Shown: positions 21,600 to 38,200, counted from the first letter of the stretch. The stretch: 64,000 nt of DNA from an uncultured archaeon (GCA_964558645.1 CAZLEV010000005.1:96001-160000), one strand, 5' to 3'. Notes: a model not told the origin generated them from the letters alone. Numbers and translations are program-made.

Positions 21600-21612
21600 C
21601 CTGACAGTAGAG

Positions 21613-22726: not shown

Positions 22727-23713
22727 TCATATCCAGCCAAAGAGAGCCACATAGGCCACTCCCGCTATGAGAGAAAACAGGAAGAAGATAACCGTATAGA
22801 TGAGAACGCCTCTCCATTTGAAGAACCGACTGTTCGGGGCCATTGATACAAAGTCATAAGGCTGTCCCATCATGAAGGCCAATGCAGTTGACCGCGACAT
22901 TCCCTTTGCAAGAAGCGTACTTGTTAGTACAATCTCAACAAGCGTGGGTGTGTAAAGGGGACCACCAAGAAGCGATCCGAAAAATATACCCAACCACCCA
23001 GTGAAGTACGAAACAATCCATTCGCTAGGAAGAAAAGCAGCAATGTAGCTGACGATAATCAGCCCGATGAGTAGATAAGCAAGAATCGATTTCATCAAGA
23101 ACCATATATTGTTGTATACATTTCGAACTCGATCATTAATTGTCTTTGTCAGTAGTAGCTTCTTGGCTTTTCCTACTCGTACATCATCATACTGCTTCTG
23201 AAGATCTCTTGCGAGCTTCGTTCGATCAAATACAAATCCACACAAAACAGCAGCGATCATGGAAAAGAACAGTCTGAACAAGCCAAGATCCCAACCCAGA
23301 TAATCGCCTGTCAAAAGAATGGTGATCAAATTGGCAGCTGGAGCCATCAGAAAGAAGGTCATCGCAACGCCAACAGTTGCGCCACTCATTAGAATTGAAA
23401 CATAGATGGGTATTACCGAGCAACTACATGTTATGAACAGGGGGGATAGGAGTGCAGCAAGCAAGTAGTTCCTTAGACCGTGAGACCCAAGATACTTGAC
23501 AATCATATCCTCTTTTACATACTCCTGGATAGCCCCCCCAATGAAGAAGGCCAACAATAATGAAGACCATGCATTCCTTCCGTAATCAATTATGTACCTT
23601 ATCGGAATCTCGTACAATGGAAATTGACTGTAATCAATGGTCTGAGAAGGTGGTGGTGTAGATAAGAGCTCTATCTTATTGATGACGAACGCACACACGA
23701 CCGCACCAAACAC
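22727..23713 (-). CDS. Permease, ArsP/DUF318 family
   Basis: TCSCSVIP and AMTFFLMAPAAN; multi-TM. The frame is open about 25 codons upstream of the GTG at 23713, so the true start is uncertain. Confidence 0.85.
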   Translation of the reverse strand: MFGAVVCAFVINKIELLSTPPPSQTIDYSQFPLYEIPIRYIIDYGRNAWSSLLLAFFIGGAIQEYVKEDMIVKYLGSHGLRNYLLAALLSPLFITCSCSVIPIYVSILMSGATVGVAMTFFLMAPAANLITILLTGDYLGWDLGLFRLFFSMIAAVLCGFVFDRTKLARDLQKQYDDVRVGKAKKLLLTKTINDRVRNVYNNIWFLMKSILAYLLIGLIIVSYIAAFLPSEWIVSYFTGWLGIFFGSLLGGPLYTPTLVEIVLTSTLLAKGMSRSTALAFMMGQPYDFVSMAPNSRFFKWRGVLIYTVIFFLFSLIAGVAYVALFGWI

Positions 23714-23815
23714 AATGATTAGCAGAATAGTAGTGAGATGAATTCCATCAGTACTCTCTGACTGCTCTTCCGTACTGGTTCTCTCCTGTCAATTCAGACT
23801 TAGGCACAAAAATGC

Positions 23816-24112
23816 TTATCCTGACAAGATTTGCTTAATCGCTCGATTTATTTGTTTCTGGGTCGGAACATCGCCTTCTGACACAACATACTCATTGATG
23901 ATGACAGCAGGTCCCTTCAAAGATCCGTACGTCTCCAGTGTTGTCTTATCTGTTAAGGAAATATGTTCAATCGAACTGTCATAGTCACCAAGTGCTGCTA
24001 ATGCCTCCTCGATGTTCTTCTTGGTCTTTCTGCATCGGTCACAAGGAGTCTCTGGGCCAGCAATCTTAACGATGATCTTTTGCATGTTGGTTCTGTGACT
24101 GGAGTCGTTCAT
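23816..24112 (-). CDS. Small thioredoxin-like protein (MTH895 type)
   Basis: CDRC motif and PAVIINE..G.VP; same strand as and directly upstream of the permease. Confidence 0.8.
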   Translation of the reverse strand: MNDSSHRTNMQKIIVKIAGPETPCDRCRKTKKNIEEALAALGDYDSSIEHISLTDKTTLETYGSLKGPAVIINEYVVSEGDVPTQKQINRAIKQILSG

Positions 24113-24651: not shown

Positions 24652-26544
24652 TTGGTTTTAAGAGGAGATGACGCGGAATATCAGGAAGCAATCCGGTTCT
24701 GGGAGGGGCAAAGCGATACAAACAAACGAATAATCCTTCAGACCCTTGTAGAAAATAGCTGGGACTTCGAGGGGGTTACAGAGGAGTATGGTAGCAAGAT
24801 AGCTCGTATTCCCCTTTCTGTCTTGCAGGCGGAGTATAAGAGGCTGAATCTGACTCCTAGGCGATTGGAGAAAGAATTCCGAGATCCGTTGAAGGCAACT
24901 CCTTTGAAGAATACTCTGAAGCGTTTGAGTCAGACCTGTACCGCAGAGGAGGCGATCGCAGAGTTAGTAGACAATGTCTTCGACAACTTTGCGAGGAAAC
25001 GTCATGAACGTACAACGGATCTCTTGGAAATCGGCATTCACTTCCTCTCTCGTGAGGGGGAACACTACGACGAGATAATCCTCAGGGAGAATAGTGGGGG
25101 GGTCAGGAATGATGAGCTTCTCCCGTTGGTTCGGTTGGGGGACTCGGCGACTGCCGGAGCACGCACGATCGGTGCATGGGGACAAGGATCGAAGATTGCA
25201 TGCTTTGCCCTAGCAGATGAAATAGAGATTTTTACCCATCATCCTGCCCATCGTCCGGTCTGTATTCATTTCCCAGACGGATGGCTAAAGGAAGAACACC
25301 CACGATACAAAGACTGGGAAGTGAAAGTATACGAAGCTGAGGATGTACCTAGTGGGACAACGGTATTTCGTTTCTGTAACTTGAAGACAACGGCAAGAAC
25401 GGCTGACCTGACAGCTATCAAGAAATACCTTGAGAGAATCTATTCCTACAAAATCCAGGATTGGAGAGAACAGGGTACCACGATTGATATCCGATTAGAA
25501 GATACACTGAGCGATGTATCCTATGAAATTGAACCCGTTTTCACTGTTGATATTCTCGAGGAAGAGAGGGGCTTCTGTTGGTTTCCTGATTATGCACCAT
25601 TGGAGGTGACTCATGTGCTCGAAAGCGAAACGCCGTTGGGTGAGAAGATCGAAGTCAAGGTAAGGATGGTTTGTGGTATACTGAGTGATTCGAAGTCGGA
25701 CCTAGGGGGAGTATATATGTACGGTAATAAGCGACTCTTCACACCAAAGCCGGAAACTGATGAAAGGGTGGGTTACGGTCTAGATGTTCAGGGAAGGAGA
25801 GGCAAGATTCAGAAATATCGGCCCTCGCTCTATCGTCTTTTGACATTTGTCTTCTTCGAAAGCGAGGAACAGGAGTCTGAGTATATACCTTGGGCTGCAC
25901 CTCTCAAGAACCGGTATAATCCAAGTAACGTCTTTCATGATGAAATAATCCAGATTCTCTACAGAATAGTCTATCCGTATAGTCTTGTATGCGAAGGTCT
26001 AGAGAGGGAAATGCTACCATTCTTTTCCAAAAGATGGGACGCTCTTGGCCGCCAAGAGAAGAAGAACCTAGTGGAATCATTCTTTGGCGGAGACGTGAAT
26101 CCCGAGGAAGTAGTCAAATACCATATCATTGAAGGCAACCTGGACAATCTTCGTCAGTTCCCTTTTGAACAAGTAAAGGGAATCAGCGACTTGCCCTTCG
26201 GGCAAGTAAAATCTTCAACAGTGAAGAAGTTCCTAGAAAAAGTCAAAGATGAGAAGTTCAACGTTGGAAGGAGAGAGTTCTTCTTGGCATTCTTCTCGGG
26301 CACGGTGAATCGACTAGTCGGTGAAGGAGTGCTCGACATAGACTTACCCGCACCAGATCCAGATCATATCAATATGGAGTACATAGAGAGTTGCCTTGAG
26401 CAGATGGAGCAGCTGTACGAGTCGGGGACAATCAAGCTTGAGATGGATGAGAAGGAGAAACTACAGAAGAAACTCAATCTACCAGAAGAGGCATCTGTAG
26501 CTGAGATTATCGATGCACTTGCAAAGAAAGAACTCGGCATCTAG
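24652..26544 (+). CDS. GHKL/MORC-type ATPase (HATPase_c_3-like)
   Basis: N-box AIAELVDNVFD, RENSGGV, G-rich LGDS..IGAWGQGSKIAC and GTT, followed by an S5-like region (GGVYMYGNKRL). Confidence 0.8.
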   Translation: MVLRGDDAEYQEAIRFWEGQSDTNKRIILQTLVENSWDFEGVTEEYGSKIARIPLSVLQAEYKRLNLTPRRLEKEFRDPLKATPLKNTLKRLSQTCTAEEAIAELVDNVFDNFARKRHERTTDLLEIGIHFLSREGEHYDEIILRENSGGVRNDELLPLVRLGDSATAGARTIGAWGQGSKIACFALADEIEIFTHHPAHRPVCIHFPDGWLKEEHPRYKDWEVKVYEAEDVPSGTTVFRFCNLKTTARTADLTAIKKYLERIYSYKIQDWREQGTTIDIRLEDTLSDVSYEIEPVFTVDILEEERGFCWFPDYAPLEVTHVLESETPLGEKIEVKVRMVCGILSDSKSDLGGVYMYGNKRLFTPKPETDERVGYGLDVQGRRGKIQKYRPSLYRLLTFVFFESEEQESEYIPWAAPLKNRYNPSNVFHDEIIQILYRIVYPYSLVCEGLEREMLPFFSKRWDALGRQEKKNLVESFFGGDVNPEEVVKYHIIEGNLDNLRQFPFEQVKGISDLPFGQVKSSTVKKFLEKVKDEKFNVGRREFFLAFFSGTVNRLVGEGVLDIDLPAPDPDHINMEYIESCLEQMEQLYESGTIKLEMDEKEKLQKKLNLPEEASVAEIIDALAKKELGI

Positions 26545-26559
26545 TGGAGAAAGCAGCAG

Positions 26560-27060
26560 ATGCGATACAGAAGTGTGACGGAAAAGGACATTCTGTTCAT
26601 TCTTGAGGAATCGATTAGTAAGTTGCCGCATCATCCTTGGATCCAGACCGAGAGTGACATAAAATGCGCACTTTATACCGCGTTTTACAATATGATTTCA
26701 GTCCGAATAGCCAATCTCGAGAGCTGTGGTTGGCGAGTCATTACGGAGTATCCATTACCCGACGGCAAGTATGTCGATTTTGCTGTTCTCCACAACGGCC
26801 ATCCGTGTTTGTTTGTTGAGATAAAATACATCAAGAATTTCACAACTAAGGAAATCGCGGATATTCGGGAGGACTACTTGAAGAGAAAATCCTTTCTGAT
26901 CAGCGAAGAAGTCAAGCTGCTACAGCTTGTTGCAAGTGAGTTTGACGGGGACTACGAAGAGGTGATTTGCGAGAAGATGATAAGAGCATATGGCGAACTC
27001 TATGAGGGGGGTCTGGGAGGAAAGGCATACATCATATATATTCGGATTCCAAGTGGCTGA
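26560..27060 (+). CDS. PD-(D/E)XK-superfamily nuclease
   Basis: TESDI...TEY.LPDGKYVDFAV...FVEIK; starts 15 nt after the GHKL ATPase stop. Confidence 0.7.
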   Translation: MRYRSVTEKDILFILEESISKLPHHPWIQTESDIKCALYTAFYNMISVRIANLESCGWRVITEYPLPDGKYVDFAVLHNGHPCLFVEIKYIKNFTTKEIADIREDYLKRKSFLISEEVKLLQLVASEFDGDYEEVICEKMIRAYGELYEGGLGGKAYIIYIRIPSG

Positions 27061-27085
27061 GGCAGAAACTACAGAAAGCGCATTG

Positions 27086-27472
27086 CTACTCCGTTAGTAC
27101 ACTCTTCTGACGACTGTCAAGCAAAAGCAAGAAGTCATCAAGCGATCTGATCCTCGTGTGGATCAGGGATATGCCTCGGTTAAGGTGAGCCTTGAGATAG
27201 GCTTCAGCCTTTTCGAAGTCGATTTCATCTGCAGATAACCGTTCGATCAGAAGAGATCTGAAAGCATTATCCCATTTTCCCGTTAAAGAGTACCTATTCA
27301 GTTCTTTGCCATCTTCATCGAAGTCGAAACTTGGAAACCCCTCTTTCTCCATCGAATAGCAGAGAGCAACTCGACACAGAAGATTCGGTGTTATTCCTGT
27401 CCTCCGCCTCAAGACAGTTAGTTTGGAGGTTGACGACCGACTGACCTTGATTTTCTTGAATTCCAGCTTCAT
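27086..27472 (-). CDS. dndE: DNA phosphorothioation protein DndE
   Basis: LRRRTGITPNLLCRVALCYS, DGKELNRYSLTG and HLNRGI; 128 aa; overlaps the dndD stop. Confidence 0.9.
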   Translation of the reverse strand: MKLEFKKIKVSRSSTSKLTVLRRRTGITPNLLCRVALCYSMEKEGFPSFDFDEDGKELNRYSLTGKWDNAFRSLLIERLSADEIDFEKAEAYLKAHLNRGISLIHTRIRSLDDFLLLLDSRQKSVLTE

Positions 27473-29460
27473 CCGCAGGTCCTCCTGGTCGTTGCTATTG
27501 TACGGCGTTCGGCACCATCAAACTGAAGATGGTATTCCTGAGATATGATGGGGCGGATCTTCTTTCCAACCTCTTCGGTAACTTCAGTTTCCGTAGCGAA
27601 CATTACTATCTGTGGACCTGCAAGTGGAATGAATTTCGAGATCACAGAGGCACGATGTTCCTCATCTAGTCGGGAGAATGGAGTATCAATGAAGACTGGC
27701 AGACTTCTCTTCGATATTTTAGAGATGGCGCCCAGTAGTGCATATATGTAGATTTGTTGTTCTCCTGAAGAAAGGACCGACGAGCCGGTTGTCCTGCCAT
27801 CGCTATGCTGGATACTGACATCAAGTGCATCCCTTCCAATTTCAACGGCACGGAGTCGTTTGTTACGGGGTCGCATGTTGTTGTAAATCTGCTTGAACTC
27901 TGCAGTCAGTTCTTCTGCATAAAATGAATGAAGTTCTCTCTTGAATTCTTTGACTACCCCACGGAGTCTGTCAACTAGTGCAAGTTTCCGTTTGTGCTTC
28001 TCGGCCGCCTCTGTTTCTTTCATTGCCTTGTTCTGACGGTTCCTAAGCTGCTCAATGTCAACAATGAGCGAATCAAGCTCGTCCTGAAGCTCGTTTTTCT
28101 CCCGTTCGATCTTCTCAAGGTCCCGTATAGAATCACGCAAATCGCTCACAAGAGGTTTGAGACTCTCATCTGTGGGCATTCGAGAGAGGTCATCGCGTAC
28201 TTGCTCCAGTGAGGCTTCTACTTGGCCGTATTCGCTTACATAGTCTCTGAATTCCTGAAGAGCTGTCGGCGCATCATGGGTAAGTAGTCTGACTACCCGG
28301 TCGGTTTCGAAAGAAGATAGCTTGTGACGAAGCGGAATATTGTGACTATTCTCAAGTCTGCTGGATATCGCATCCAGAATGTCCTCAGCTATGCGCTCCT
28401 TCTGGGAAGAGGATAAATCAAGTGAGTCGAACACGCCATCGGAAGCCATTGAGCTAGCAAGTTCCTTCTTGCCATCCTTCATCTTTCTGACTACTGCATT
28501 AGATGATATTATATCCGCTTCTCTCTTTAGAACCTCGACGGTCTTCTTCTTCAACGATGGGGCGAAAACAAACGGGAGAGCATTTGAGAAAAGCTCTAGT
28601 ATTGCTCGCTCTAATGTTTCTTTCTCAACAAGGAGATGTCGCTCTTGACGGTGAAGCTCGTTCCTTTGCTCAGCATACTCTGAGCCCTGCCTCGAAAGCC
28701 TTAGCTCCTGTTCCGTAATGGAAGCCTGGATATCGATGAGAAGGCCGTCGATTTCGGCTAGTCTCTCATGAATCCACTCGCTCCTCTCAGTCAACTCATT
28801 TATCTCATTCTCTAGCTTCTCGAACACAGAGAAGTCGGCCTGAATCTCCTTCTTGTTCAACCAGTACATGTATCTAGGCAAGTCGGAATCCAGTTGATTG
28901 ACAACATCGATTCCCACCAGAGTTTCAAATCCGTCTCTGAAAATCTTCTGTGGGCCGCGGGCTCCAGATAGTCGGTCTATTCGTTCCCCGTCGAAGAATA
29001 TCAGCTGGGCGAGTCCTGCAGGCACAAAATTCAGAAGGAATTCCTGAGGATAAGTGAGTTCCTTCTCTGGTTCTCCTCCCTGTAGAATTGATGCTCTGAG
29101 GTCCTCAATCACACCACCGTCTCTTTGAGTCCATGCGCGGGATATCCGGAGACGGTAATCGATACCTCGCTCAGCATAGGCTATTTCCAACTCTATTGAT
29201 GAAGTGTCGGCGGAGTTTCCGCCTGATATTCGCTGCTTGATGAAATCCTGGTAATCCGCTTCTTTCATCTTGATCCCTCGGAAGAAAGGGCCGTAGATGC
29301 AAAGAGAGATTGCCTGAAACAGTGTGCTCTTACCGGCGCCATTCTTCCCAGTGAAGAGAATCAACGAAGGTGATTGTTTTTCGTCTTCACAGGACAGACT
29401 GAAGCTATAAGATCCTCGATATGGACCGAAGTTCCGAATGTCTACAGAACGCACCCTCAT
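27469..29460 (-). CDS. dndD: DNA phosphorothioation SMC-like ATPase DndD
   Basis: NFGPYRG, Walker A GKNGAGKST, FFDGERI, coiled coil, LSSGEQQI, IDTPFSRLDEEHR and QIVMFATETEV. Confidence 0.92.
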   Translation of the reverse strand: MRVRSVDIRNFGPYRGSYSFSLSCEDEKQSPSLILFTGKNGAGKSTLFQAISLCIYGPFFRGIKMKEADYQDFIKQRISGGNSADTSSIELEIAYAERGIDYRLRISRAWTQRDGGVIEDLRASILQGGEPEKELTYPQEFLLNFVPAGLAQLIFFDGERIDRLSGARGPQKIFRDGFETLVGIDVVNQLDSDLPRYMYWLNKKEIQADFSVFEKLENEINELTERSEWIHERLAEIDGLLIDIQASITEQELRLSRQGSEYAEQRNELHRQERHLLVEKETLERAILELFSNALPFVFAPSLKKKTVEVLKREADIISSNAVVRKMKDGKKELASSMASDGVFDSLDLSSSQKERIAEDILDAISSRLENSHNIPLRHKLSSFETDRVVRLLTHDAPTALQEFRDYVSEYGQVEASLEQVRDDLSRMPTDESLKPLVSDLRDSIRDLEKIEREKNELQDELDSLIVDIEQLRNRQNKAMKETEAAEKHKRKLALVDRLRGVVKEFKRELHSFYAEELTAEFKQIYNNMRPRNKRLRAVEIGRDALDVSIQHSDGRTTGSSVLSSGEQQIYIYALLGAISKISKRSLPVFIDTPFSRLDEEHRASVISKFIPLAGPQIVMFATETEVTEEVGKKIRPIISQEYHLQFDGAERRTIATTRRTCG

Positions 29461-30860
29461 CGATCAAGCTTCCTCCTAGTAGCAAGCACTTCCTCTTTCG
29501 ACCGCCATTCCTCAGAGAAGACTCGGTCGATATGTTCCATCATCGAAGATCTTCTCGCTAGACCCTGCTTCAACGCCTCCAAATCAAGTAATTTCTTGAC
29601 AAGATCTAGTGGCACATTCTCTTTCTCACAGAGGCTCTGAAGAATATCCTGCTCTTTCATTCCGAAGGTGACTATGTCGTCCGTCTTCCACTCCAAGTCC
29701 TTATCCATCTCTTCTCGATATATTTTTGGAACACGATCAAGCCAATCTGCACGCTCCAATCGCCAGATACGGCGGATTGCATGTAATTCATCAGAGCGAA
29801 TAACCACGAAGGTATCCAGACCTGTTTCATCTATCTTCTTCTGAACTCTTAGCACCATTCTTAGTATCTTCTCACACACATCAAGCCTGTATGGGCCTGG
29901 AACGATGGCACTGGAATCATTTCGCATGAAAGAAACACGGCCGTTTCGTCTTTTGTACTGGCGATATTCCTTCTTCTTCTCCGGATTAGTAGTCATATGC
30001 AAGAAGTCCCTTATCTCGAGAAGATCACTCATCCAACCTCTTCTGGTGTCAATTAGATGTTCCATGGATCTATCGCTTTCCACGAGCGTACAGACCCAGC
30101 ATCCGAAACGCGAGTTACCACAAGGAGGCGTCTTTGTGTCAACAACCATAGGGCACTCTCCGCCCTCGGCATCTTTATAGAGATCAAACAGGGCGTAGTT
30201 ATCACCGCCCCAAGGGGAACTCTCTTCCAGTAGATAACCCCAAACTTCGTCTACACTAAACTCCTTGATAGGAGCATAGACATAAGCTCCCGCAAAGTGT
30301 GTATGTTTGAGGAGCTTCGGCCTTTTCGTTTCTCTCAAACTGAGTACTTGATCGCGTGTGGCACTTTCACCCTGTCTGACACCCAATACGATTATCACTT
30401 CGCCATGATACGCAATCTTCTCCTCAATGAATCTGTTCGATGGTCGTATCTTCAAACGATCCGTACACCAGCGAAATTTCTGGGTTGGAGCAGGATATCC
30501 TCTCCCAATAAGGTTCACCCAGAAACTATCATTTATGGCGGGCTGAACCAATGCAATCTCAAATGGGAGATTCGCATCCTCGGCCGCATTCTTCATTCTT
30601 GAGAGAGAATCGCGTAGGTAGTCGAGGACAACAGGGTTCTCTACGAATGTATCGGAGGATATGACATAGAGCTTCTTTTGCAGCTTCTTTCTCGGCAATT
30701 CGGACAGTGCAGACCAGACCATCTGTAAAGCCGCTGTGGAGTCCTTGCCCCCGCTGTAACCAACTATCCACGGGCGGTCGTCCGCAAGAAATAAGCTTCT
30801 GATTTCCTCGTATATGTTACTGAGCCGCCACTCATCTATGATCACCGATGTTTCACTCAT
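29457..30860 (-). CDS. dndC: DNA phosphorothioation sulfurtransferase DndC (PAPS-reductase fold)
   Basis: PWIVGYSGGKDS, FWVNLIGRGYPAP, RWCTDRLKIRP and GECP...CGNSRFGCWVCT. Confidence 0.95.
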   Translation of the reverse strand: MSETSVIIDEWRLSNIYEEIRSLFLADDRPWIVGYSGGKDSTAALQMVWSALSELPRKKLQKKLYVISSDTFVENPVVLDYLRDSLSRMKNAAEDANLPFEIALVQPAINDSFWVNLIGRGYPAPTQKFRWCTDRLKIRPSNRFIEEKIAYHGEVIIVLGVRQGESATRDQVLSLRETKRPKLLKHTHFAGAYVYAPIKEFSVDEVWGYLLEESSPWGGDNYALFDLYKDAEGGECPMVVDTKTPPCGNSRFGCWVCTLVESDRSMEHLIDTRRGWMSDLLEIRDFLHMTTNPEKKKEYRQYKRRNGRVSFMRNDSSAIVPGPYRLDVCEKILRMVLRVQKKIDETGLDTFVVIRSDELHAIRRIWRLERADWLDRVPKIYREEMDKDLEWKTDDIVTFGMKEQDILQSLCEKENVPLDLVKKLLDLEALKQGLARRSSMMEHIDRVFSEEWRSKEEVLATRRKLDR

Positions 30861-31169
30861 TGACGACGACCCCGACTTCCAAGACGCTCTGCCATTTTCT
30901 CTCTGAGTTCATACTCCCTGAAATGCCTTTTCCTTTCGGGCCTCAGATTCGCAAAGGAACAGCACTCATGGGAGTATCTGTTACTCCTATGTGAGCATCT
31001 GTACATCAAGCTTCCCAATTCCATTTCCCTCATCATGTGTGTTCCACTTGCTGCAATAAAAGGTCGTCAATTCCCTGAATCTCTCATCATTGATTTCGAA
31101 GAATCATGAGATCATGTAGCTCTGCTTGTCTTCTCATACACTATACCTGGTGATTCCCCAAGAGCTCGT

Positions 31170-31802
31170 CTATTCGTACTCATTCGACAAGAACTGCTTG
31201 GGTATTTCTGCAAGTACCTTCTTCTCGAACTGCTCTCTGACTCTAACAAAGTCAAGAGCAATGTACTCAGGCGCGTGTGACCTCATCTTCCACTCTACAA
31301 ACCTGCTGCTCGCAAGTTTGTCGATGAAGGATATGTCCCCATCTTCTCTTGCGGCATCAGAGTAGTACGGAAACACGACATTGGTTACGAAATCGTCATC
31401 GAGGATTATGTCAAGAAAGTCGTAAAGCTTCCGCCTGTATTCAACTTCCCTTTCTTGATCCAGATCCTCGTTCCTTGATAACCACAGGAGAAGAAGTGCA
31501 TTGCGAAGCATGTTTACTTCTTTCTCTACATTGGCACTGAACTCATAGCTGCCGTCGCAAGGGAACTCGTCAACTTCCAACGGAGGAAGTTTGACGGTTG
31601 AGTAGAGCCCGTAGAAGACTGTTAGAAGGAGGATGTCCACCTTCCTGGGTCCGCTAAGGTAGTCAGTTTCGTTGTACTGATCACGTCCCTCCTTCCCGGC
31701 TGCTGGAGATTCAGCAGTCTGCTCACCCACCGCCTTCAGAAGACTCTCAAGTTGTTTCGGCATTCTGATATTACCTTTTAACTGCATGTTCCCAGACCTC
31801 AC
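31170..31802 (-). CDS. pbeD: PbeD-like protein (last gene of the PT-associated effector block)
   Basis: About 200 aa and overlapping the ATPase stop. Assigned mainly by position in the helicase-small-ATPase-small order next to dndCDE. Confidence 0.55.
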   Translation of the reverse strand: MRSGNMQLKGNIRMPKQLESLLKAVGEQTAESPAAGKEGRDQYNETDYLSGPRKVDILLLTVFYGLYSTVKLPPLEVDEFPCDGSYEFSANVEKEVNMLRNALLLLWLSRNEDLDQEREVEYRRKLYDFLDIILDDDFVTNVVFPYYSDAAREDGDISFIDKLASSRFVEWKMRSHAPEYIALDFVRVREQFEKKVLAEIPKQFLSNEYE

Positions 31803-33667
31803 TTCGGATTCTCGATTTTTTCGACCTCTGCAGAGAAATACTCAGCAAAATCATCAAGCTCGGTGGGCAAACAAAGCAGCATGACTTGTGGATGATTGTT
31901 CACCAAATGCTTTGCAAGGGCAGCTCTGTGACTTCCAACATTGCCCACAGGCGTGTCGATAATGATGGGATCAACCTGGCTCATTGCCTCCGCGAAGAGA
32001 TAAGAAAGAATCAGTCGGCCAGAGTACCCACCAACTTCGGGTCCATAGATGCCTTTCTCTCCAAGCATCAGACCCTCCTCTTCATCAAGAGTCGCTGAAA
32101 AAGTGTCACCAAGGATGTTCTTGACGGCTTTCGAAATCACCTTGCTGATAGCATCGATTGTTCTGCTGCGAATCTCCTCATTTGTCTTTCGAAGTATTCC
32201 TCTCAGATGTTCGATTTCGTCATAGAATGGTTTGTTGATCCTGTAACCCTCACTCTTCTCCTTGGCCGCCTCGAACTCCTTCTCAGCCATCTTGAATATC
32301 TCCGTTTCGTCTTCAAGTGATCCTTTCGCATCACCAAGCTTCTCTAGCAAGAGCCTCTTTGAGTGTTCAAGATTGTCGATCTTGCTGAATAGCTCCTGAT
32401 CAGCTGGTGATAATTGGATCTGCTCCAGTCTTGAGTTGAGCCCGTCCAGTTTCTCTACATGCTCTAGGATTTCCTTCCTCTTGCTCTTGGGATCAAAACT
32501 CAGATCCTCGCGGACGGGATTAGAAGTGAGGAATTCCTGAATCCTATGTGATGCAACTTGGCGGCCCAATTCTCTTACTCGTTCAAGTGTTTCATCTTCG
32601 TCAATTTCTCGGCCACAGATCTGGCAGACAGGGGGGGCACTTGACAGGCATGCATCAATCAGATCCTTTCGATATGGTTCCGGCAGCCTTCCATGTTCTC
32701 GAATCAATTCCTTAACGGACTCAAGTTCATTGACAGAGCCAAACCGAGCCCATGCCCACCAGTTGTGATAGACATCCATCCGCGCAGCGGCGAAGTCCTT
32801 CTTGCAGGACCGTATTTCACTCTCAATGTTCACTTTCTGGGTTGCGTTCCTTGACAGTGCCTTGAGTTTGGCTTCGCGAATCTCTTCTATTTTTGCTGTG
32901 ATTTTCTCTATTTCTCCGGTATAGACCTCTATCTGATCCTTGCAGTGTTTCATCCTCTTCTCAGATTCTGCCTTCAGCTTCCTCTTTTCCTCGAGAGAGC
33001 TGTTCGTGATAGAGATCGATCGTTGGCTGTCGACACGTCCGATCTTGCTTAAGAGACGGTCTTCAAGATCATCAAGCGCGTCCAGGTACGCCATCAGATG
33101 CTGATGTGTTGTTCGTTCCTTCACACGTTCGATGAGTTTGCTAACCTGTGTAGCTAGTATCATCATCTCGCGAGCCTTCTCTCCATCAAAGCAAAGATAC
33201 TCGGCAGATACGCCCAGTCTGAATTCCGAATTCAGGAACTCCTGCACGTCGTCGCCTCGAATGACTTTCTTTCCTCGATCTATCTCCAGGGAATCTTCAA
33301 TAGAATCAATAATATCGCCAGCCAATGACTCCTTTCTCTTTGATCGATCATGTTTCCCCTTCGTCACGCGCTGATAGCTGTACAACGTGCCAGAATCATC
33401 CTCGAAATCAATGCTTATCCTGCACTCTTGTTTTCCTTTTTTGTCCCAATCCAGGACATGGGCCGGATCGACCCACATATGTCGAAACTTTCCTTCTGCT
33501 TGGCTCTCTTTGTAACTGAAACACCAGCGGAGAAGTTCGATTGTTGTGGTCTTACCGGTAGACCCATCCATCTCGAATATTGCGTGTGATTGGCCTTTCG
33601 GAATACTTAATCTGAAATTCCGCCCCCTATAGCCTTCTATGCCTATCGACCTAAATCTAATCCCCAA
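31799..33667 (-). CDS. pbeC: PbeC-like Rad50/SMC-type ATPase with Zn-hook
   Basis: Walker A DGSTGKTT, FDGE, coiled coils with central CQIC, and Walker B IIIDTP. Confidence 0.7.
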   Translation of the reverse strand: MGIRFRSIGIEGYRGRNFRLSIPKGQSHAIFEMDGSTGKTTTIELLRWCFSYKESQAEGKFRHMWVDPAHVLDWDKKGKQECRISIDFEDDSGTLYSYQRVTKGKHDRSKRKESLAGDIIDSIEDSLEIDRGKKVIRGDDVQEFLNSEFRLGVSAEYLCFDGEKAREMMILATQVSKLIERVKERTTHQHLMAYLDALDDLEDRLLSKIGRVDSQRSISITNSSLEEKRKLKAESEKRMKHCKDQIEVYTGEIEKITAKIEEIREAKLKALSRNATQKVNIESEIRSCKKDFAAARMDVYHNWWAWARFGSVNELESVKELIREHGRLPEPYRKDLIDACLSSAPPVCQICGREIDEDETLERVRELGRQVASHRIQEFLTSNPVREDLSFDPKSKRKEILEHVEKLDGLNSRLEQIQLSPADQELFSKIDNLEHSKRLLLEKLGDAKGSLEDETEIFKMAEKEFEAAKEKSEGYRINKPFYDEIEHLRGILRKTNEEIRSRTIDAISKVISKAVKNILGDTFSATLDEEEGLMLGEKGIYGPEVGGYSGRLILSYLFAEAMSQVDPIIIDTPVGNVGSHRAALAKHLVNNHPQVMLLCLPTELDDFAEYFSAEVEKIENPK

Positions 33668-33673
33668 GAAACT

Positions 33674-33844
33674 TCATCTCCCAAGTATATTTTCACGAAT
33701 CTCCTCGAAAGGCATGTCACGGAGTTTTCCGGCGCGTATCAACTGAAGCAACGGGTTGTCACCATGTTCAGCCAACAACCTCTCAAACTCAGCCGACAGT
33801 ATTGCATCTATCTCTTCTTGTATATTCACAGGTTTGTCCTTCAT
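33674..33844 (-). CDS. pbeB: PbeB-like small protein, 56 aa (not in the ORF track)
   Basis: Hand translation gives MKDKPVNIQEEIDAILSAEFERLLAEHGDNPLLQLIRAGKLRDMPFEEIRENILGR*. It fills the gap between helicase and ATPase with 6-nt spacers on both sides. Confidence 0.7.
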   Translation of the reverse strand: MKDKPVNIQEEIDAILSAEFERLLAEHGDNPLLQLIRAGKLRDMPFEEIRENILGR

Positions 33845-33850
33845 ATTTCA

Positions 33851-35647
33851 TCACTCCCTCATATAGGAAATCGACTGCAGTGTTTCGTATCGGTCTAGCT
33901 CCATTGGTAGTACGGACCCCTCAGGATCACAGAACACCAAATCAATGATCTTGGCGGGGGCTTCAGGCTCTCGTGGATCGTAGCGTAGGGCGCGTCCGAT
34001 TTTCTGGACCCAATCTCTCTCAGAGCGATGTGAGCCGTGAAGTACGATAAGCGAAATGCTAGGAAGGTCGAATCCTTCCGCAAGCATCTGTTCTGCAATC
34101 AGGCAGAAACCCTTGTTGGAAGCAAACCGATCCATTGCATAATCAAGATACTTCTGTGGGTGTTTCGAGTCGTAAACATAGGCAGATGAATCTGGTTTCC
34201 AGTCAGTATGGGCGGTCAGATGGTCCCGAATCATCTCCGCAATCTTGTTGGTCTGAACAAAGACTAGAGAAAAGCAATCATTGATCTCCTCTATAGAGTC
34301 GTCCAGAACACGACGAAGTTCTCGAATCCCGTTTTTGGAGCTGCGGACATGGTAGGCACGCATGAACGCCGCAGATGCTGAATCAGCATCTCCAATACCC
34401 TTGGAATCCATCTCCATGGCGATTCGACGCGTGTAATCCTCATATTTCTGCATCTCAGACTTCGAAAGACGGCAGAAGTGAGGTTCATATTCCACTTCCT
34501 TTAGTATTGGTCTCCCTTTATTCAAATCATTCCACCGAGAATAAAAGGACGGCAATGATATGGCAAACTGCGAAGCGGGGCCCCCGCAGTGTGAAAGATA
34601 TCTTTCGACCAACTGTGTTCTGAAAGAATCGATAGTAGCTGATAATCCGAGGTGGTAGTATTCAACGCCACCAGAAGTGAGAACATCCTCAAAGTTCTCC
34701 AAGGTGTCTAGCATGCTGTACAAGTTGTGACATTCATCAGCAAACAGGAGACAGTCACATCCAACAAGTGAAAGGCCGTCAGCGACTGTCAGATGGTGTT
34801 CCTTGAAGCGACTATACAGTGTCACAAGGATTCTCTGCTCGGGACGGGCCAAGTATTCCGAATAGGATTCTGAAGTAGTCCCACCTTCATATACATCGAA
34901 ACCCATGGCCTCAAGAATACCTATCCATTGCTCTATCAGTGTCGTAGTAGGTACGAGGACGATGGTAGTGATCTCCTTTCCCACAGGCAACATGTGCTGT
35001 AAATATGACAAAGCAATACGCGTCTTGCCTGTTCCAGGCGGGATATTCACTATCGCTCGTTTTCTACCGGATAGCCATTCGACGATCACTTTCTGATGTT
35101 CCCAGAGGTCGCTCACAAGGGACGGATCAACTTCGAAAACTTTCTCAATGTCCGAGCGAAAGAGTGTGGGCGGAGGTTCATCAGAGGGCAGCTCAAGTTC
35201 ACGACTAAACGAGATAATGTCTGTCCACAAATTCGCCACATCTTCGTGAAATGGGGGTTCAAACTCAACAAGCAGCTCCATATTCTGACCCGATGATCGC
35301 GTCAAATTTGGAGAACCCAGCCCCACAAGAATGCACCCGTTCTCCCCGTCGACGAAGTAGCCCTTCGCATGTATCACTCGCTGATTCTCCGATACGCAGT
35401 GGATCCTTATGATTCCCTTTCGAATAAGTCCTATCAGTTCGTCGGTTTGGCTTCCTGAATGCTTGAGATGCTCCTCGTTCGCCACAATCGATACTTTCTG
35501 CAAGCCTTTGTAACGCTTGAATAGACTCAGTACGTAGTCTAGATTGACATTGTATACAACACACCTGAGGGTTTTACCCTCCATCTGTCCAAGCGCCTTC
35601 GCCAGAAAATTCTCTAACGTATTTAGGCCGAACGAAACACCCTGCAT
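33851..35647 (-). CDS. pbeA: PbeA-like PLD-nuclease / SF2 DExH helicase fusion
   Basis: PLD motif IHAKGY...GSPNLT; helicase motifs PPGTGKT, DECH, SAT, EGFDLP and QKIGRALR; ATG at 35647 preferred. Confidence 0.8.
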   Translation of the reverse strand: MQGVSFGLNTLENFLAKALGQMEGKTLRCVVYNVNLDYVLSLFKRYKGLQKVSIVANEEHLKHSGSQTDELIGLIRKGIIRIHCVSENQRVIHAKGYFVDGENGCILVGLGSPNLTRSSGQNMELLVEFEPPFHEDVANLWTDIISFSRELELPSDEPPPTLFRSDIEKVFEVDPSLVSDLWEHQKVIVEWLSGRKRAIVNIPPGTGKTRIALSYLQHMLPVGKEITTIVLVPTTTLIEQWIGILEAMGFDVYEGGTTSESYSEYLARPEQRILVTLYSRFKEHHLTVADGLSLVGCDCLLFADECHNLYSMLDTLENFEDVLTSGGVEYYHLGLSATIDSFRTQLVERYLSHCGGPASQFAISLPSFYSRWNDLNKGRPILKEVEYEPHFCRLSKSEMQKYEDYTRRIAMEMDSKGIGDADSASAAFMRAYHVRSSKNGIRELRRVLDDSIEEINDCFSLVFVQTNKIAEMIRDHLTAHTDWKPDSSAYVYDSKHPQKYLDYAMDRFASNKGFCLIAEQMLAEGFDLPSISLIVLHGSHRSERDWVQKIGRALRYDPREPEAPAKIIDLVFCDPEGSVLPMELDRYETLQSISYMRE

Positions 35648-35882
35648 TTTCCTAATCCTCCATTCTCTACAAAGGTCAAGAAAAAGGTTATTGTGGTCGA
35701 AGGAAGATGATGGGTTTGGATAGGGATGAGTCAGACCTTGGATTATACAATTGCCGAGTAATCTGAATGAGTCTTGGCCCGGTAGAGAAACCCTACTCGA
35801 CGCCAAGAAGAAGAATCCTATCAGCGGTTGGAGAAGTCGCATTCTTGAACCTAGGAGCAGCATTAGATCTGGAAGACGAATC

Positions 35883-36641
35883 TCAGCTGAGAACAGAATC
35901 TACGAAGTTGTATTTCTGTTTCGAGTCATAAAGGCCCCACAGATCCCAAGATAGAACGGGAGTGACATCAGAGCGCATCTCCTGAAAAGCGAGGTCTAGG
36001 CGATGCCTGAGATTCTGCATATCCTCTAGGCCGGTAACAATCGGAACCAATCTAGAATTCCATTGAACTCTGGCTTCCTTCTGGGCAACTAGCATGGCAT
36101 CACCTCTTTCGGGTGAGAAAATATCAAAGATGCAGGTTGGCGCACCTTTAGCACTCCATTTCCAGACTATAGGAAATAGATGGGTGCCAACCTCGAAATC
36201 TCGTTCCACAACCCGATCATAGTGTTCCGCCAGAGCTTCTAGCATGTCTAGAATTCCTTCTTCGGGAAGTGTCTTCATCTCCCTGAAGTCATGTTTCCTT
36301 GTCGACTCCCCGGGATCAATCGGATCTAGTGCTCGACCTCTCCGATGAGGTGTTATCTCCCATTCTGTTCCCTGCTCCACCTTCACGAATCTTAGATTGT
36401 CGCCCGCCTCCAGATGGAAATTCTCTGCTAGTGTTTCAAGTTTCATTCTACTGCTATTGTCAACATAGGTTTCATAGTAGGAGCCGCCACAGTGATACTC
36501 GAAACGGACGTTGGAACGTGGAAACCAAAACCTGTGTTCCTCTAATGCGCGCAAAAGGTGATCAAGATGTGACTGGCTCAACTCAAGTTCAAACTCGTTC
36601 TCGCTGACAAAAGTGATGGTTATCACCTCAAATCTTACCAC
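35883..36641 (-). CDS. Hypothetical protein: beta-barrel (B3-like?) N-domain + degenerate restriction-nuclease-fold C-domain
   Basis: N-terminal FP....F......YETYVD...L....F.LEAGDNLRF; C-terminal ILDML...ERDF....FPIVWK...P.CIFDI. Confidence 0.45.
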   Translation of the reverse strand: MVRFEVITITFVSENEFELELSQSHLDHLLRALEEHRFWFPRSNVRFEYHCGGSYYETYVDNSSRMKLETLAENFHLEAGDNLRFVKVEQGTEWEITPHRRGRALDPIDPGESTRKHDFREMKTLPEEGILDMLEALAEHYDRVVERDFEVGTHLFPIVWKWSAKGAPTCIFDIFSPERGDAMLVAQKEARVQWNSRLVPIVTGLEDMQNLRHRLDLAFQEMRSDVTPVLSWDLWGLYDSKQKYNFVDSVLS

Positions 36642-36808
36642 AGATGGGTCACAATAGACCCATGGAGCTGTATTCCCTAGGAGGATATATCTGTCTTTGG
36701 GGCCTTCAGATAGGCGAATGAGTAAAGACCAGATTATGAATCAGAGATAACTACGTTCGCAATCTCACGAGCGTTCCACCGATAATCTATTCCAAGAAGC
36801 GGTGACCG

Positions 36809-37069
36809 TTGGTCTCGAATCAGCCACGATGGAAATATGGGACAATGCGCTCCTACTTGGCGCAGAAACAAATGCCTGAAGAATGCTCGCCTATATTGGA
36901 AGATATCATTGAGAGCGTCACAGATATTTTGGAGAAGGAAATAGAGCGGATTGAAGAGAATCTAGGAGAAGCAGATGCGGATGATGAACAGAAATTCAGG
37001 GGAGCGCTAGCCAATGCTTCTCTCTATTTCAAACTCACTCATCTGGCACTCACCATACTTAGGTACTAG
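36809..37069 (+). CDS. Small acidic helical hypothetical protein
   Basis: 86-aa ORF with GCGGTGA upstream and coiled-coil-like composition. Confidence 0.5.
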   Translation: MVSNQPRWKYGTMRSYLAQKQMPEECSPILEDIIESVTDILEKEIERIEENLGEADADDEQKFRGALANASLYFKLTHLALTILRY

Positions 37070-37104
37070 AACACCTCTCGAACCTCAGCAGATGCTTCTA
37101 GTGC

Positions 37105-38043
37105 TCACTTCGATTCATCCTGCTCAGCAACTGGGTATCGCAAGACAGTTGATTTCGAACGGCGGAACTCCAAGGCGAGCTGATACAATCGGACAACTTC
37201 CTCGGCTGAGCAGTAGCTGAATCTATCCTTTACGGAAGAGTAGGGTTCAGTACTCACTAGCGCCTCGAAACGTGACCTATGCTTCTCAGATCCTATGACT
37301 GTAAGTAGAGCATCCAGATGTCTCACGGAATGAAGACCGTCGAGGGCCGAATCAACCTCATCATCAGTGAGGACATTGTACATGAAGAGAGGGGGCACAT
37401 CGCTGAACCATATCACATCACTGTTCTCCATCTGCTCGAAACCCCGGTATTGCTTAGGAATCTCAACCGTCTTCAGGTTCTTCGACGCCAACGAAGACCG
37501 TGACTTCGCTTCGGCCCCCCTGAGGTAAACCTCGTACTTCAGCAAAGCACCGGTCTTAGCAATCATGTCCAGTATTTGCCCACGTTCGAACCAAGGTCGT
37601 GTCTTCTTTGTCAACCAGAATCTGAACACCCTCTGGAGCTGGCCAGCTGGAGTCTTCTTCTTGGTGACGAAGCTATCCTCATAGCCTCTGAGCTGCCAGA
37701 TTCCGCGGTATACCCAATCCCCCTCTCTTTCCTCTTCGGTGTGAACAAAGAGATGAATGTCCTTGTCCCCACCCTGTGCCAAGGTCTTATTGCCATGACT
37801 GTACGTCTGATGCCCTTTCTCCGGTTGCCCCTCTCCTATGTAGTACACCACGGGGCTGTCAGGATTGTACACGTCATCGTATGGACTAGTCTCAAGATTG
37901 AGTCTCAGCATTATTGCCGTATGATCCTCCTTAGGAACAGGAAGAATGCCTCGGGGAGTTGTGGCGTCTTCTTGATATCCAATAGCAGCGAAGATCTCGC
38001 TCTGCTTGTACTCGTTGCCTTCTTTGAAGTCGTCAAATACCAT
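37105..38043 (-). CDS. SRA/YDG-domain protein with degenerate PD-(D/E)XK-like C-domain
   Basis: RGI...YDD.......YIGEGQ..GHQ....GNKTL...IHLF...WVYRG matches SRA domains of modification-dependent nucleases; C-terminal SDVIWF...MYNV. Confidence 0.7.
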   Translation of the reverse strand: MVFDDFKEGNEYKQSEIFAAIGYQEDATTPRGILPVPKEDHTAIMLRLNLETSPYDDVYNPDSPVVYYIGEGQPEKGHQTYSHGNKTLAQGGDKDIHLFVHTEEEREGDWVYRGIWQLRGYEDSFVTKKKTPAGQLQRVFRFWLTKKTRPWFERGQILDMIAKTGALLKYEVYLRGAEAKSRSSLASKNLKTVEIPKQYRGFEQMENSDVIWFSDVPPLFMYNVLTDDEVDSALDGLHSVRHLDALLTVIGSEKHRSRFEALVSTEPYSSVKDRFSYCSAEEVVRLYQLALEFRRSKSTVLRYPVAEQDESK

Positions 38044-38200
38044 GATACTGCACCCTACCACTTCGTGGGTAATCACGCACATGGCGAAGAAGCGGCTTTA
38101 ATCTATTCTGGTTGACTGTGACCTAGAAACCTAACATCTTCGTTGATGGTAGACCAAAGCGTTATCTTGTCAGAATGCGAAAGACCGTCTAGGGAGTAAT

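What the first reader, a model, noticed from the sequence alone, without database searches (positions are those of the whole stretch)
24652..38082. Extended DNA-phosphorothioation defence island (dndCDE + pbeABCD-like + extra modules) in a probable Asgard archaeon
Seen: a co-oriented PLD-helicase, 56-aa ORF, Zn-hook ATPase and ~200-aa gene, followed by dndC-dndD-dndE with 4-nt overlaps. A GHKL ATPase-nuclease operon lies on one side and two reader-pseudonuclease genes on the other. Established: dndCDE(A)-pbeABCD is a PT-dependent antiviral system described in the haloarchaeon Haloterrigena jeotgali, distinct from DndFGH restriction. Inference: this is a divergent Pbe-type system in an Asgard-like host, and the accessory genes may make it a multi-layer, modification-sensing variant. 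I am not aware of a described locus with this composition.
Basis: partly seen in the sequence, partly recalled or inferred. Interest (0 to 1): 0.85.

Follow-up and report, generated by a model that had tools for sequence, protein, structure and literature searches.

The report
Asgard Dnd-Pbe island with GHKL-nuclease pair
An Asgard archaeon carries a horizontally acquired island with a known DNA-sulfur-marking defence system (DndCDE plus PbeABCD), and beside it a rare ATPase-nuclease gene pair that sits next to such systems wherever its close relatives occur, so it may be an undescribed partner.

Summary
DndC, DndD and DndE score above NCBIfam's curated cut-offs. The four co-oriented genes are a PbeABCD cassette: an HKD nuclease fused to an SF2 helicase, a 56-aa protein, a zinc-hook ABC ATPase and a 210-aa protein. 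This system type is published (Xiong 2019; Aravind lab 2020 and 2024), so the core is not new.

The host is an Asgard archaeon. The locus is not an assembly chimera, because a second study's contigs bridge every junction.

The new part is the GHKL ATPase plus PD-(D/E)xK nuclease pair. Its close subfamily is very rare, with four other proteins among 5.8 billion clusters. All four contexts that can be read lie beside dnd or pbe genes, although the gene order differs between them. A 31%-identical relative sits near a Pbe-methylase cassette. More distant pairs stand alone. I found no description of this partnership.

The two "reader" genes share one C-terminal domain that has lost its family's conserved polar residues. 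Their relatives are mostly in genomes where DndC was not found, so they are separate type IV-like genes.

First-stage notes of this scan had already flagged this pair, here and in a related genome.

The parts
24652..26544 (+). GHKL (GHL-type) ATPase, 630 aa. It has an N-terminal helical extension (1-80), a GHKL plus transducer module (about 83-455) and a helical C-terminal domain.
   Evidence: Pfam HATPase_c_3 6.5e-8. Motifs ELVDNVFDN, ENSGG and GAWGQGSK are invariant in 5 homologues. The AF2 model has pLDDT 92.1. VIA-align: SMCHD1 Z 17.4, TRAP1 16.5, MORC3/MORC2 14.6, Topo VI-B 13.6, MutL 13.3.
26560..27060 (+). PD-(D/E)xK nuclease, 166 aa, starting 15 nt after the ATPase gene.
   Evidence: D73, E87 and K89 are invariant in 6 partners of related GHKL genes. 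A distant partner hits HSDR_N at 1.3e-5.
27086..27472 (-). dndE
   Evidence: TIGR03184 76.1 bits, cut-off 71.85. PF08870 6e-23.
27469..29460 (-). dndD (ABC ATPase without a zinc hook)
   Evidence: TIGR03185 371 bits, cut-off 245.85. No CxC or CxxC motif.
29457..30860 (-). dndC (PAPS-reductase-like sulfurtransferase)
   Evidence: TIGR03183 542.5 bits, cut-off 290.4. PADLOC DndC 1.9e-187.
31170..31802 (-). pbeD-position gene, 210 aa
   Evidence: Position and a 4-nt overlap with pbeC. 43% identical to the gene in the same position in L002. Language-model look-alikes at 0.92-0.93 include a cluster in which 11% of members carry PF27807 dnd_assoc_4. No profile hit, and the DndE-like fold was not shown.
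31799..33667 (-). pbeC, zinc-hook ABC ATPase, 622 aa
   Evidence: PADLOC PbeC 2.2e-24. CQIC-GR hook at residue 348. P-loop GSTGKT.
33674..33844 (-). pbeB, small protein, 56 aa
   Evidence: Position. 32% identical to the 58-aa gene in L002. Small ORFs of 58-77 aa occupy the same place in three other Asgard loci.
33851..35863 (-). pbeA, HKD nuclease fused to an SF2 helicase. The ORF is 670 aa, but the likely true start is M73 at about 35647.
   Evidence: PADLOC PbeA 1e-44 over residues 252-648. ResIII, Helicase_C and a weak PLDc_2 hit. HKD motif HAKGYFVD...GSPN. The alignment to the 602-aa L002 protein starts at residue 55.
35883..36641 (-). 252-aa protein: an N-terminal domain that looks DNA-binding (my reading only) plus a degenerate C-terminal domain.
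   Evidence: Family found in about 10 Asgard genomes. The family core LDVVWK...FEVQ...KLKHA reads FPIVWK...FDIF...AQKEA here.
37105..38082 (-). 325-aa protein: ScoMcrA-type SRA reader domain plus the same C-terminal domain, also degenerate.
   Evidence: PF26348 SRA_ScoMcrA precomputed for this protein. C-terminal homology: hmmsearch i-E 5e-4, BLAST 1.5e-5 to a family member. Alignment.
21613..24112 (-). Left part of the low-GC stretch: TauE-like exporter, ArsP-type permease and a small thioredoxin. These are probably cargo or flank, not part of the defence system.
   Evidence: Pfam. No match in the same-genus genomes beyond 21622.

Best explanation
This is an island of about 17 kb, acquired horizontally by an Asgard archaeon, that combines three kinds of nucleic-acid defence genes.

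1. DndC, DndD and DndE write phosphorothioate (PT) marks on host DNA. No dndA is present, so sulfur mobilisation would have to come in trans. The NifS-NifU pair 19 kb away is a candidate, by analogy with IscS in Salmonella and E. coli. This step is inferred.

2. A PbeABCD cassette acts against unmarked invading DNA. By published models, the zinc-hook ABC ATPase and its small partner scan DNA. The HKD nuclease-SF2 helicase is the effector, and its catalytic motif is intact here. The 56-aa protein is a regulator. These roles are taken from the literature and were not tested here.

3. A GHKL(GHL)-type dimeric ATPase and a PD-(D/E)xK nuclease form a conserved two-gene unit. The close subfamily of this unit travels with dnd/pbe loci. 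I infer that it is an additional ATP-gated nuclease effector tied to the PT/Pbe system, either as a second restriction arm or as a backup suicide nuclease. The GHKL clamp would control the nuclease, as in the fused paraMORC3/VcSduA enzymes.

The two genes beyond pbeA are reader-domain proteins of a type IV-like family whose C-terminal domain is degenerate here. They are most likely independent neighbours.
For: - Identity of DndCDE: all three score above curated cut-offs.
- Identity of the Pbe cassette: PADLOC PbeA and PbeC hits, the HKD motif and the zinc hook, and gene order and sizes as in PMC6459918 and PMC10853773. The same cassette lies beside dnd in four further genomes of the phylum.
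- Island status: GC dip, no counterpart in same-genus genomes, and DndC in only 9 of 400 genomes of the phylum.
- GHKL-nuclease unit: the pair is conserved even among relatives at 27-31% identity, with the gene order sometimes reversed.
- Linkage of the close subfamily: only four other proteins were found among 5.8 billion clusters. All four contexts that can be read are next to dnd or pbe, in four different arrangements. The pair is convergent on dndE in the window, follows pbeD and a transposase in L002, is convergent on dndA in L003, and starts 40 nt after the pbeD-position gene in L019.
- A 31%-identical pair lies 4.6 kb from a canonical CxC Pbe cassette with two methylases.
- The divergence of GHKL (46-48% identity) is similar to that of DndC (50-59%) and PbeA/PbeC (48-50%), which fits long co-residence.
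- Fold: a GHKL plus transducer module like SMCHD1, Hsp90 and MORC.
- Candidate DndA surrogate: NifS 451 bits, with an adjacent NifU.
Against: - No experiment or expression data bear on any step.
- The GHKL pair is on the opposite strand from dnd/pbe in the window. In L002 a transposase separates it from pbe, and in L059 four genes do. It is therefore not one operon with them.
- More distant GHKL-nuclease pairs stand without dnd or pbe within 16-18 kb. The unit can therefore probably work alone.
- The contexts are few. Two of them come from one archaeal family. All may descend from one mobile island, so hitch-hiking in a defence island is not excluded.
- The absence of dndA and dndB leaves open whether PT is made at all.
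- The claim that PbeD is a cognate of DndE could not be confirmed.
Confidence: 0.62

Rival explanations
1. The GHKL ATPase-nuclease pair is a self-contained defence system, a split paraMORC/Shedu-like ATP-gated nuclease. It merely shares a mobile defence island with Dnd-Pbe and has no functional dependence on PT or Pbe.
For: - Distant pairs (27% identity) occur without dnd or pbe in G183 and G226.
- The pair is on the opposite strand, or separated by a transposase or other genes.
- Fused GHKL-nuclease proteins protect on their own (VcSduA, PMC12137116).
- Defence genes are known to cluster in islands (established knowledge).
Against: Relatives at 31% identity or more lie within 5 kb of dnd or pbe genes in 5 of 5 contexts with readable flanks, although the gene order differs. 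DndC itself is found in only 9 of 400 genomes of the phylum.
Confidence: 0.3
2. The island is partly decayed and no longer works as a PT system. dndA and dndB are missing, the two reader proteins have lost their conserved residues, and the genes persist as remnants.
For: - There is no dndA next to dndE, unlike L002, L003, L029, L033 and L034.
- No DndB was found in the genome.
- The C-terminal domains of the 252-aa and 325-aa proteins are degenerate.
- The nuclease partner is frameshifted in L003.
Against: - All nine core ORFs are intact, with their catalytic motifs and translational-coupling overlaps.
- Dnd systems without dndA that use IscS are established, and the genome has several cysteine desulfurases.
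- The degenerate SRA protein keeps 56% identity to a homologue with the same substitutions, which points to selection rather than decay.
Confidence: 0.07
3. The locus is an assembly chimera or a contaminant contig from a non-Asgard organism.
For: The genome bin has 6.3% estimated contamination. The island GC differs from that of the flanks.
Against: - One source contig spans 20001-39631.
- Contigs from a second, independent marine-sediment study bridge both island borders and the GHKL-dnd-pbe junctions with no mismatches.
- The flanks match same-genus genomes at 80-87% identity.
- A same-family genome carries the same gene set.
Confidence: 0.01

Closest known systems
DndCDEA-PbeABCD of Haloterrigena jeotgali A29 (Xiong et al. 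[quoted passage not shown] 2020 and Rakesh et al. 2024 (PMC10853773)
   Same: dndC-D-E lies next to a four-gene cassette in the same order: an HKD nuclease fused to an SF2 helicase, a small protein of about 60 aa, a zinc-hook ABC ATPase and a small fourth protein. It is found in an archaeon and spreads horizontally.
   Different: - There is no dndA in the cluster.
- The hook is CxxC (CQIC), not CxC. Three other Asgard loci and L059 have CxC.
- The fourth protein is 196-210 aa, against about 150.
- The PbeA profile matches only the helicase half.
- A GHKL-nuclease pair is attached. Neither paper mentions such a pair: GHKL, MORC, MutL and Hsp90 each occur 0 times in PMC10853773.
paraMORC3 / VcSduA (Shedu type I-D): a GHKL ATPase fused to a PD-(D/E)xK nuclease (Iyer et al. 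2008, PMC2292703; Adams et al. 2025, PMC12137116)
   Same: A GHKL plus transducer ATPase is combined with a restriction-endonuclease-fold nuclease. The ATPase is proposed to gate the nuclease, and the gene sits among defence genes.
   Different: - Here the two parts are separate genes.
- The nuclease gave no hit to the Shedu DUF4263 family, or to any other Pfam family.
- PADLOC has no match for either protein.
- The ATPase has its own N-terminal and C-terminal helical domains.
- Linkage to dnd/pbe has not been described for paraMORCs.
Standalone REase-fold nucleases at the borders of Dnd neighbourhoods, proposed as backup suicide effectors (PMC10853773, section 17)
   Same: A small standalone PD-(D/E)xK nuclease is encoded at the edge of the Dnd core, on the opposite strand.
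   Different: The nuclease here is always paired with a GHKL ATPase. The NERD family named in the paper was not detected.
ScoMcrA (SBD-SRA-HNH), a PT- and 5mC-dependent type IV restriction enzyme
   Same: The 325-aa protein carries the ScoMcrA-type SRA domain (PF26348) and lies beside a dnd cluster.
   Different: It has no sulfur-binding domain and no HNH domain. Its C-terminal domain belongs to another family and lacks that family's conserved D/E/K residues. Its nearest homologue lies beside a DISARM-like operon, not beside dnd.

Membership tests
Dnd PT-modification module (DndCDE) | DndC, DndD and DndE each match their equivalog models above the curated cut-off | tested here: met
   TIGR03183 542.5 against 290.4; TIGR03185 371 against 245.85; TIGR03184 76.1 against 71.85.
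Dnd PT-modification module (DndCDE) | A cysteine desulfurase (DndA or IscS) supplies the sulfur | tested here: inconclusive
   There is no dndA in the cluster. A NifS-like gene at 7127-8305 scores 344 bits on the DndA model, below its cut-off of 480. At least 6 other class-V aminotransferase genes are present elsewhere in the genome. Whether one of them serves Dnd is unknown.
Dnd PT-modification module (DndCDE) | PT is actually present in the DNA | not testable with these tools
   This needs iodine cleavage, LC-MS/MS or long-read kinetics.
PbeABCD / CxC ABC-ATPase-anchored system | PbeA is an HKD endonuclease fused to an SF2 helicase | tested here: met
   PADLOC PbeA 1e-44 over the helicase half. 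HKD motif HAKGYFVD...GSPN. PLDc_2 1.1e-3.
PbeABCD / CxC ABC-ATPase-anchored system | [quoted passage not shown] | tested here: inconclusive
   PADLOC PbeC 2.2e-24. A cysteine pair sits mid-protein, but it reads CxxC (CQIC-GR) here and in L002. Four other cassettes read CxC-G. The function is probably equivalent, but the literal motif differs.
PbeABCD / CxC ABC-ATPase-anchored system | A small, fast-evolving protein lies between pbeA and pbeC | tested here: met
   A 56-aa ORF with 6-nt gaps on both sides, 32% identical to its L002 counterpart.
PbeABCD / CxC ABC-ATPase-anchored system | PbeD is a DndE cognate (double ribbon-helix-helix) | tested here: inconclusive
   hhalign of PbeD-position proteins against DndE gave probability 0.1. 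The AF2 model has pLDDT 49.6. The Atlas lead to dnd_assoc_4 clusters scores 0.92-0.93. The gene in the same position in L019 scores 70.4 bits on TIGR04062, below its cut-off of 74.25.
PbeABCD / CxC ABC-ATPase-anchored system | PT-dependent protection against viruses | not testable with these tools
   This needs a heterologous challenge assay.
GHL/MORC-like ATPases (GHKL plus S5-fold transducer) | Bergerat-fold motifs I-III are intact and followed by a transducer domain | tested here: met
   ExxxDNxxD, ENSGG and GxWGxGxK are conserved. The model, pLDDT 92.1, aligns over residues 83-455 to SMCHD1 (Z 17.4, 312 residues, rmsd 4.1), TRAP1 (16.5), MORC3 (14.6) and MutL (13.3).
paraMORC3 / Shedu type I-D | A DUF4263 (Shedu) nuclease domain is fused to the GHKL ATPase | tested here: not met
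   The nuclease is a separate 166-aa gene, with no Pfam or PADLOC hit to Shedu families. The resemblance is one of working principle, not of family membership.
ScoMcrA-type type IV restriction enzymes | SBD, SRA and HNH domains | tested here: not met
   Only the SRA domain (PF26348, precomputed) is present. No HNH or SBD hit was found, and the C-terminal domain belongs to a different, degenerate family.
Asgard archaea (host) | Eukaryotic signature proteins are present in the genome and in its lineage | tested here: met
   ESCRT-II/Vps25 at 42 bits and actin at 438 bits in the genome. ESCRT-II is found in 56 of 61 genomes of the GTDB family and in 0 of 14 control genomes.

The most novel reading that the evidence does not exclude
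The GHKL ATPase plus PD-(D/E)xK nuclease pair is a new, dedicated effector module of phosphorothioate/Pbe-type immunity, a further partner class beside DndFGH, PbeABCD, SspE/SspFGH and DndI. Its ATP-driven clamp would read the state of DNA scanned by the Dnd/Pbe ABC-ATPase machinery and license cleavage.
Probability: 0.35. Interest if true: 0.7.

Novelty: new variant of a known kind. Interest (0 to 1): 0.55.

Why it matters
How PT marks are turned into immunity is still disputed. Xiong et al. report no DNA cleavage by PbeABCD, while the Aravind laboratory argues that its HKD nuclease must cut. A second nuclease unit gated by an ATPase, which keeps company with dnd/pbe across archaea and probably bacteria, would add a missing effector. 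It could explain protection without visible action by PbeA. It would also extend the link between MORC/GHKL ATPases and epigenetic-mark-based defence to backbone modification. In addition, the locus documents Dnd-Pbe in Asgard archaea, in about 2% of the genomes sampled, always as a sporadic and apparently transferred island. The main text of the Asgard defence survey does not mention this.

Tried and rejected
- PbeD as a DndE cognate. Profile-profile comparison gave probability 0.1. AF2 on a 6-row alignment gave pLDDT 49.6 and was unusable. PADLOC holds no model that matches any PbeB or PbeD.
- Complex prediction of the GHKL ATPase with the nuclease returned no verdict, score 0.00. This is not evidence either way.
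- Further members of the close GHKL subfamily. The JGI metagenome scan with A1 found nothing, as did viral contigs and plasmids. GTDB species genomes yielded only the same-family MAG.
- Contexts of P0017, P0019, P0021 and P0023. The contigs are 2.5-3.8 kb, too short to show neighbours.
- PDB sequence searches with the GHKL, 252-aa and 325-aa profiles gave nothing meaningful.
- The Atlas look-up of the C-terminal half of the 325-aa protein gave no usable hit. For the 252-aa protein it gave only sub-0.8 leads to restriction endonucleases.
- No direct repeats suggesting att sites were found at the island borders. There are no tRNA genes in the window and no Rfam families at 20-41 kb.
- Sequencing runs. 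No RNA holder is listed. In run X3 (freshwater sediment, relatives at 90-99% identity) no contig covers 24.7-26.7 kb, the GHKL gene. Cover is thin over pbe, while dndCD and the flanks are covered. A part without cover proves nothing.
- The 59-aa ORF at 30857-31036, which overlaps the start of dndC, has no counterpart in any related locus. I treat it as probably spurious.
- BLAST between the 252-aa and 325-aa proteins found nothing. Homology of their C-terminal domains appeared only with a family profile.

Full report
**What is there**

| Coordinates | Strand | Gene |
|---|---|---|
| 24652-26544 | + | 630-aa GHKL ATPase |
| 26560-27060 | + | 166-aa protein, starting 15 nt later |
| 27086-27472 | - | dndE |
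| 27469-29460 | - | dndD |
| 29457-30860 | - | dndC |
| 31170-31802 | - | 210-aa gene |
| 31799-33667 | - | 622-aa ATPase |
| 33674-33844 | - | 56-aa ORF |
| 33851-35863 | - | 670-aa helicase |
| 35883-36641 | - | 252-aa gene |
| 37105-38082 | - | 325-aa gene |

The dndC/dndD and dndD/dndE junctions each overlap by 4 nt. So does the junction between the 622-aa ATPase gene and the 210-aa gene. The plus-strand pair ends 25 nt from the dndE stop, so the two units converge.

GC is 0.47 across 22-38 kb, against about 0.52 outside.

**The Dnd module**

DndC, DndD and DndE each exceed NCBIfam's curated equivalog cut-offs. PADLOC agrees.

| Protein | Model | Bits | Cut-off |
|---|---|---|---|
| DndC | TIGR03183 | 542.5 | 290.4 |
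| DndD | TIGR03185 | 371 | 245.85 |
| DndE | TIGR03184 | 76.1 | 71.85 |

There is no dndA in the cluster, and no DndB was found in the genome. Related loci carry dndA directly after dndE.

A NifS-like cysteine desulfurase with an adjacent NifU lies 19 kb away, outside the island. The genome has several more class-V aminotransferase genes. Use of a housekeeping desulfurase in place of DndA is established for IscS in enterobacterial Dnd systems. For this organism it is an inference.

**The Pbe cassette**

The literature defines the four Pbe proteins as follows (PMC6459918 and PMC10853773):
- PbeA is an HKD nuclease fused to an SF2 helicase.
- PbeB is a small, fast-evolving protein.
- PbeC is a CxC zinc-hook ABC ATPase.
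- PbeD is a small DndE cognate.

The window's genes compare as follows:
- **670-aa protein.** It matches PADLOC PbeA at 1e-44 over its helicase half. It has an intact HKD motif, HAKGYFVD...GSPN. Its first 72 residues are probably not translated, because the alignment to the 602-aa orthologue starts at residue 55.
- **622-aa protein.** It matches PbeC at 2e-24 and has a cysteine pair in mid-coiled-coil. The pair reads CQIC-GR, that is CxxC rather than CxC. The same is true in the one close relative. Three other Asgard cassettes and a metagenomic one read C-x-C-G.
- **210-aa protein.** It is longer than the usual PbeD of about 150 aa. I could not show that it is DndE-like. A language-model look-up places it with clusters that include PF27807 dnd_assoc_4. 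The gene in the same position in L019 scores 70.4 bits on TIGR04062 dnd_assoc_4, below its cut-off of 74.25.

The cassette is therefore a mildly divergent member of a published system type.

**Host and integrity**

- The genome encodes an ESCRT-II/Vps25 homologue and an actin scoring 438 bits.
- ESCRT-II is found in 56 of 61 genomes of the same GTDB family and in none of 14 control prokaryotes. This is the accepted signature of Asgard archaea.
- The flanks of the island match two same-genus genomes at 80-87% DNA identity, up to about 21.6 kb on the left and from about 38.9 kb on the right. Nothing matches in between.
- DndC is present in only 9 of 400 genomes of the phylum, and in neither same-genus genome.
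- One contig of the source run spans 20001-39631. Contigs from an independent marine-sediment study match with no mismatches over all but one of the listed pieces. They bridge both island borders and the GHKL-dnd-pbe junctions.

The island is real, contiguous and horizontally acquired.

**The GHKL-nuclease pair**

*Fold and motifs*
- The ATPase keeps the Bergerat motifs.
- With a 51-row alignment it folds at pLDDT 92.1.
- Residues 83-455 align to the GHKL plus transducer modules of SMCHD1 (Z 17.4), TRAP1/Hsp90 (15-16.5), MORC3/MORC2 (14.6), Topo VI-B (13.6) and MutL (13.3).
- The N-terminal 80 residues and the C-terminal 175 residues are helical and unmatched.
- The 166-aa partner has an invariant D...ExK. 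This is shared with the partners of relatives as low as 27-31% identity, in some of which the gene order is reversed. One such partner hits HSDR_N.

The two genes therefore form a conserved unit.

*Rarity*
- A profile search of 1.84 billion representative proteins gave 297 hits, of which only 26 were below 1e-30.
- The close subfamily (46-51% identity) has four other proteins among 5.8 billion clusters.

*Contexts*

Every context that can be read holds dnd or pbe genes.

| Locus | Source | Arrangement |
|---|---|---|
| Window | this genome | GHKL pair convergent on dndE |
| L002 | same-family MAG | dndAEDC, pbeABCD, transposase, then the pair |
| L003 | another assembly; its Jag_N gene suggests a bacterium | the pair convergent on dndA-E-D-C; nuclease frameshifted |
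| L019 | 2.9-kb contig | 3' end of pbeC, dnd_assoc_4 gene, then the pair 40 nt later |
| L059 | JGI sediment metagenome contig; GHKL 31% identical | 4.6 kb from a canonical CxC Pbe cassette that carries two DNA methylases instead of dnd |

Pairs at 27% identity in two other Asgard genomes have no dnd or pbe within 16-18 kb. Another clade has a different small partner.

*Literature*

The most thorough comparative study of Dnd neighbourhoods does not mention GHKL, MORC, MutL or Hsp90. It does note standalone REase nucleases at system borders as putative backup effectors. The nearest functional analogue is the fused GHKL-nuclease paraMORC3/VcSduA.

*Conclusion for the pair*

I conclude that it is a split ATP-gated nuclease whose close subfamily is specifically associated with Dnd/Pbe loci. 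Functional dependence on PT or Pbe is inferred, not shown. Hitch-hiking within one mobile island remains a serious rival explanation.

**The two reader genes**

- The 325-aa protein carries the ScoMcrA-type SRA domain, PF26348, from precomputed hits.
- Its nearest homologue (56% identity) follows a DISARM-like operon.
- The 252-aa protein has full-length or C-terminal-domain relatives in about ten Asgard genomes. DndC was not found in most of them.
- Neighbours of these relatives include an EVE/DCD protein, a PLD-DpnI_C enzyme and, in one case, dndBCDEA.
- A family profile shows that both window proteins share one C-terminal domain.
- The family consensus reads LDVVWK...FEVQ...KLKHA...FHE. The 252-aa protein has FPIVWK...FDIF...AQKEA. 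The 325-aa protein and its homologue have lost the acidic residue and the lysine.

"Reader plus pseudonuclease" is therefore a fair description, if the domain is a nuclease at all, which I did not test. These genes look like independent type IV-like neighbours, not parts of Dnd-Pbe.

**Verdict**

The core is a known system in a host group where the papers I read do not describe it. The GHKL-nuclease partnership appears undescribed and is the part worth an experiment.

First-stage notes of this scan had already flagged the same pair in this window and in the related genome. Follow-ups on other genomes reported other GHKL ATPases beside dnd or pbe. I did not test those.

Noticed in passing
window 19682-19743 and 43341-43420: A stretch of 60-80 nt at the 3' ends of two large secreted-protein genes (a subtilase and a 979-aa DUF4350 protein) matches dozens of contigs in both same-genus genomes at 75-85% identity. 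It is probably a shared C-terminal sorting or anchor signal.
   Followed up: no
window 7127-9081: A NifS-like cysteine desulfurase (451 bits) is translationally coupled to a NifU scaffold fused to a thioredoxin-reductase-like C-terminal part. It is the candidate sulfur donor for Dnd.
   Followed up: partly
window 30857-31036 (-): A 59-aa ORF overlaps the dndC start by 4 nt. It has no counterpart in any related locus and is probably spurious.
   Followed up: partly
window 35647-35863 (-): The first 72 codons of the pbeA ORF look untranslated, since they are hydrophobic and not conserved. The real start is probably M73, which leaves a gap of about 236 nt after the 252-aa gene.
   Followed up: partly
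alignment A6 (relatives of the GHKL ATPase): 8 of 51 relatives carry a fused NTP_transf_2/Pol-beta nucleotidyltransferase domain. One of them (L044) is followed by a DUF8154 gene. This is a different output module on the same ATPase.
   Followed up: no
L029 (G363:C16, same archaeal family): dndB-C-D-E-A is followed by a homologue of the 252-aa protein with intact family residues, and then by a DpnII-type R-M system with two methylases. A ParB-like pair and an MBL-fold gene lie on the other side.
   Followed up: partly
L014 (JGI 3300035158 contig): The closest homologue of the SRA protein lies directly after a DISARM-like operon (DrmE_C, helicase, a 616-aa gene, PLD nuclease), with a C5 methylase nearby.
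   Followed up: no
L003:2045-2698: The nuclease partner of the GHKL ATPase is split by a frameshift into pieces of 68 and 130 aa in this assembly. This is either decay or a sequencing error.
   Followed up: no
L053:9295-11100 (G108): A homologue of the 252-aa protein sits divergently next to a 314-aa EVE/DCD-domain protein. This mirrors the two-gene arrangement in the window, but with a different reader domain.
   Followed up: no
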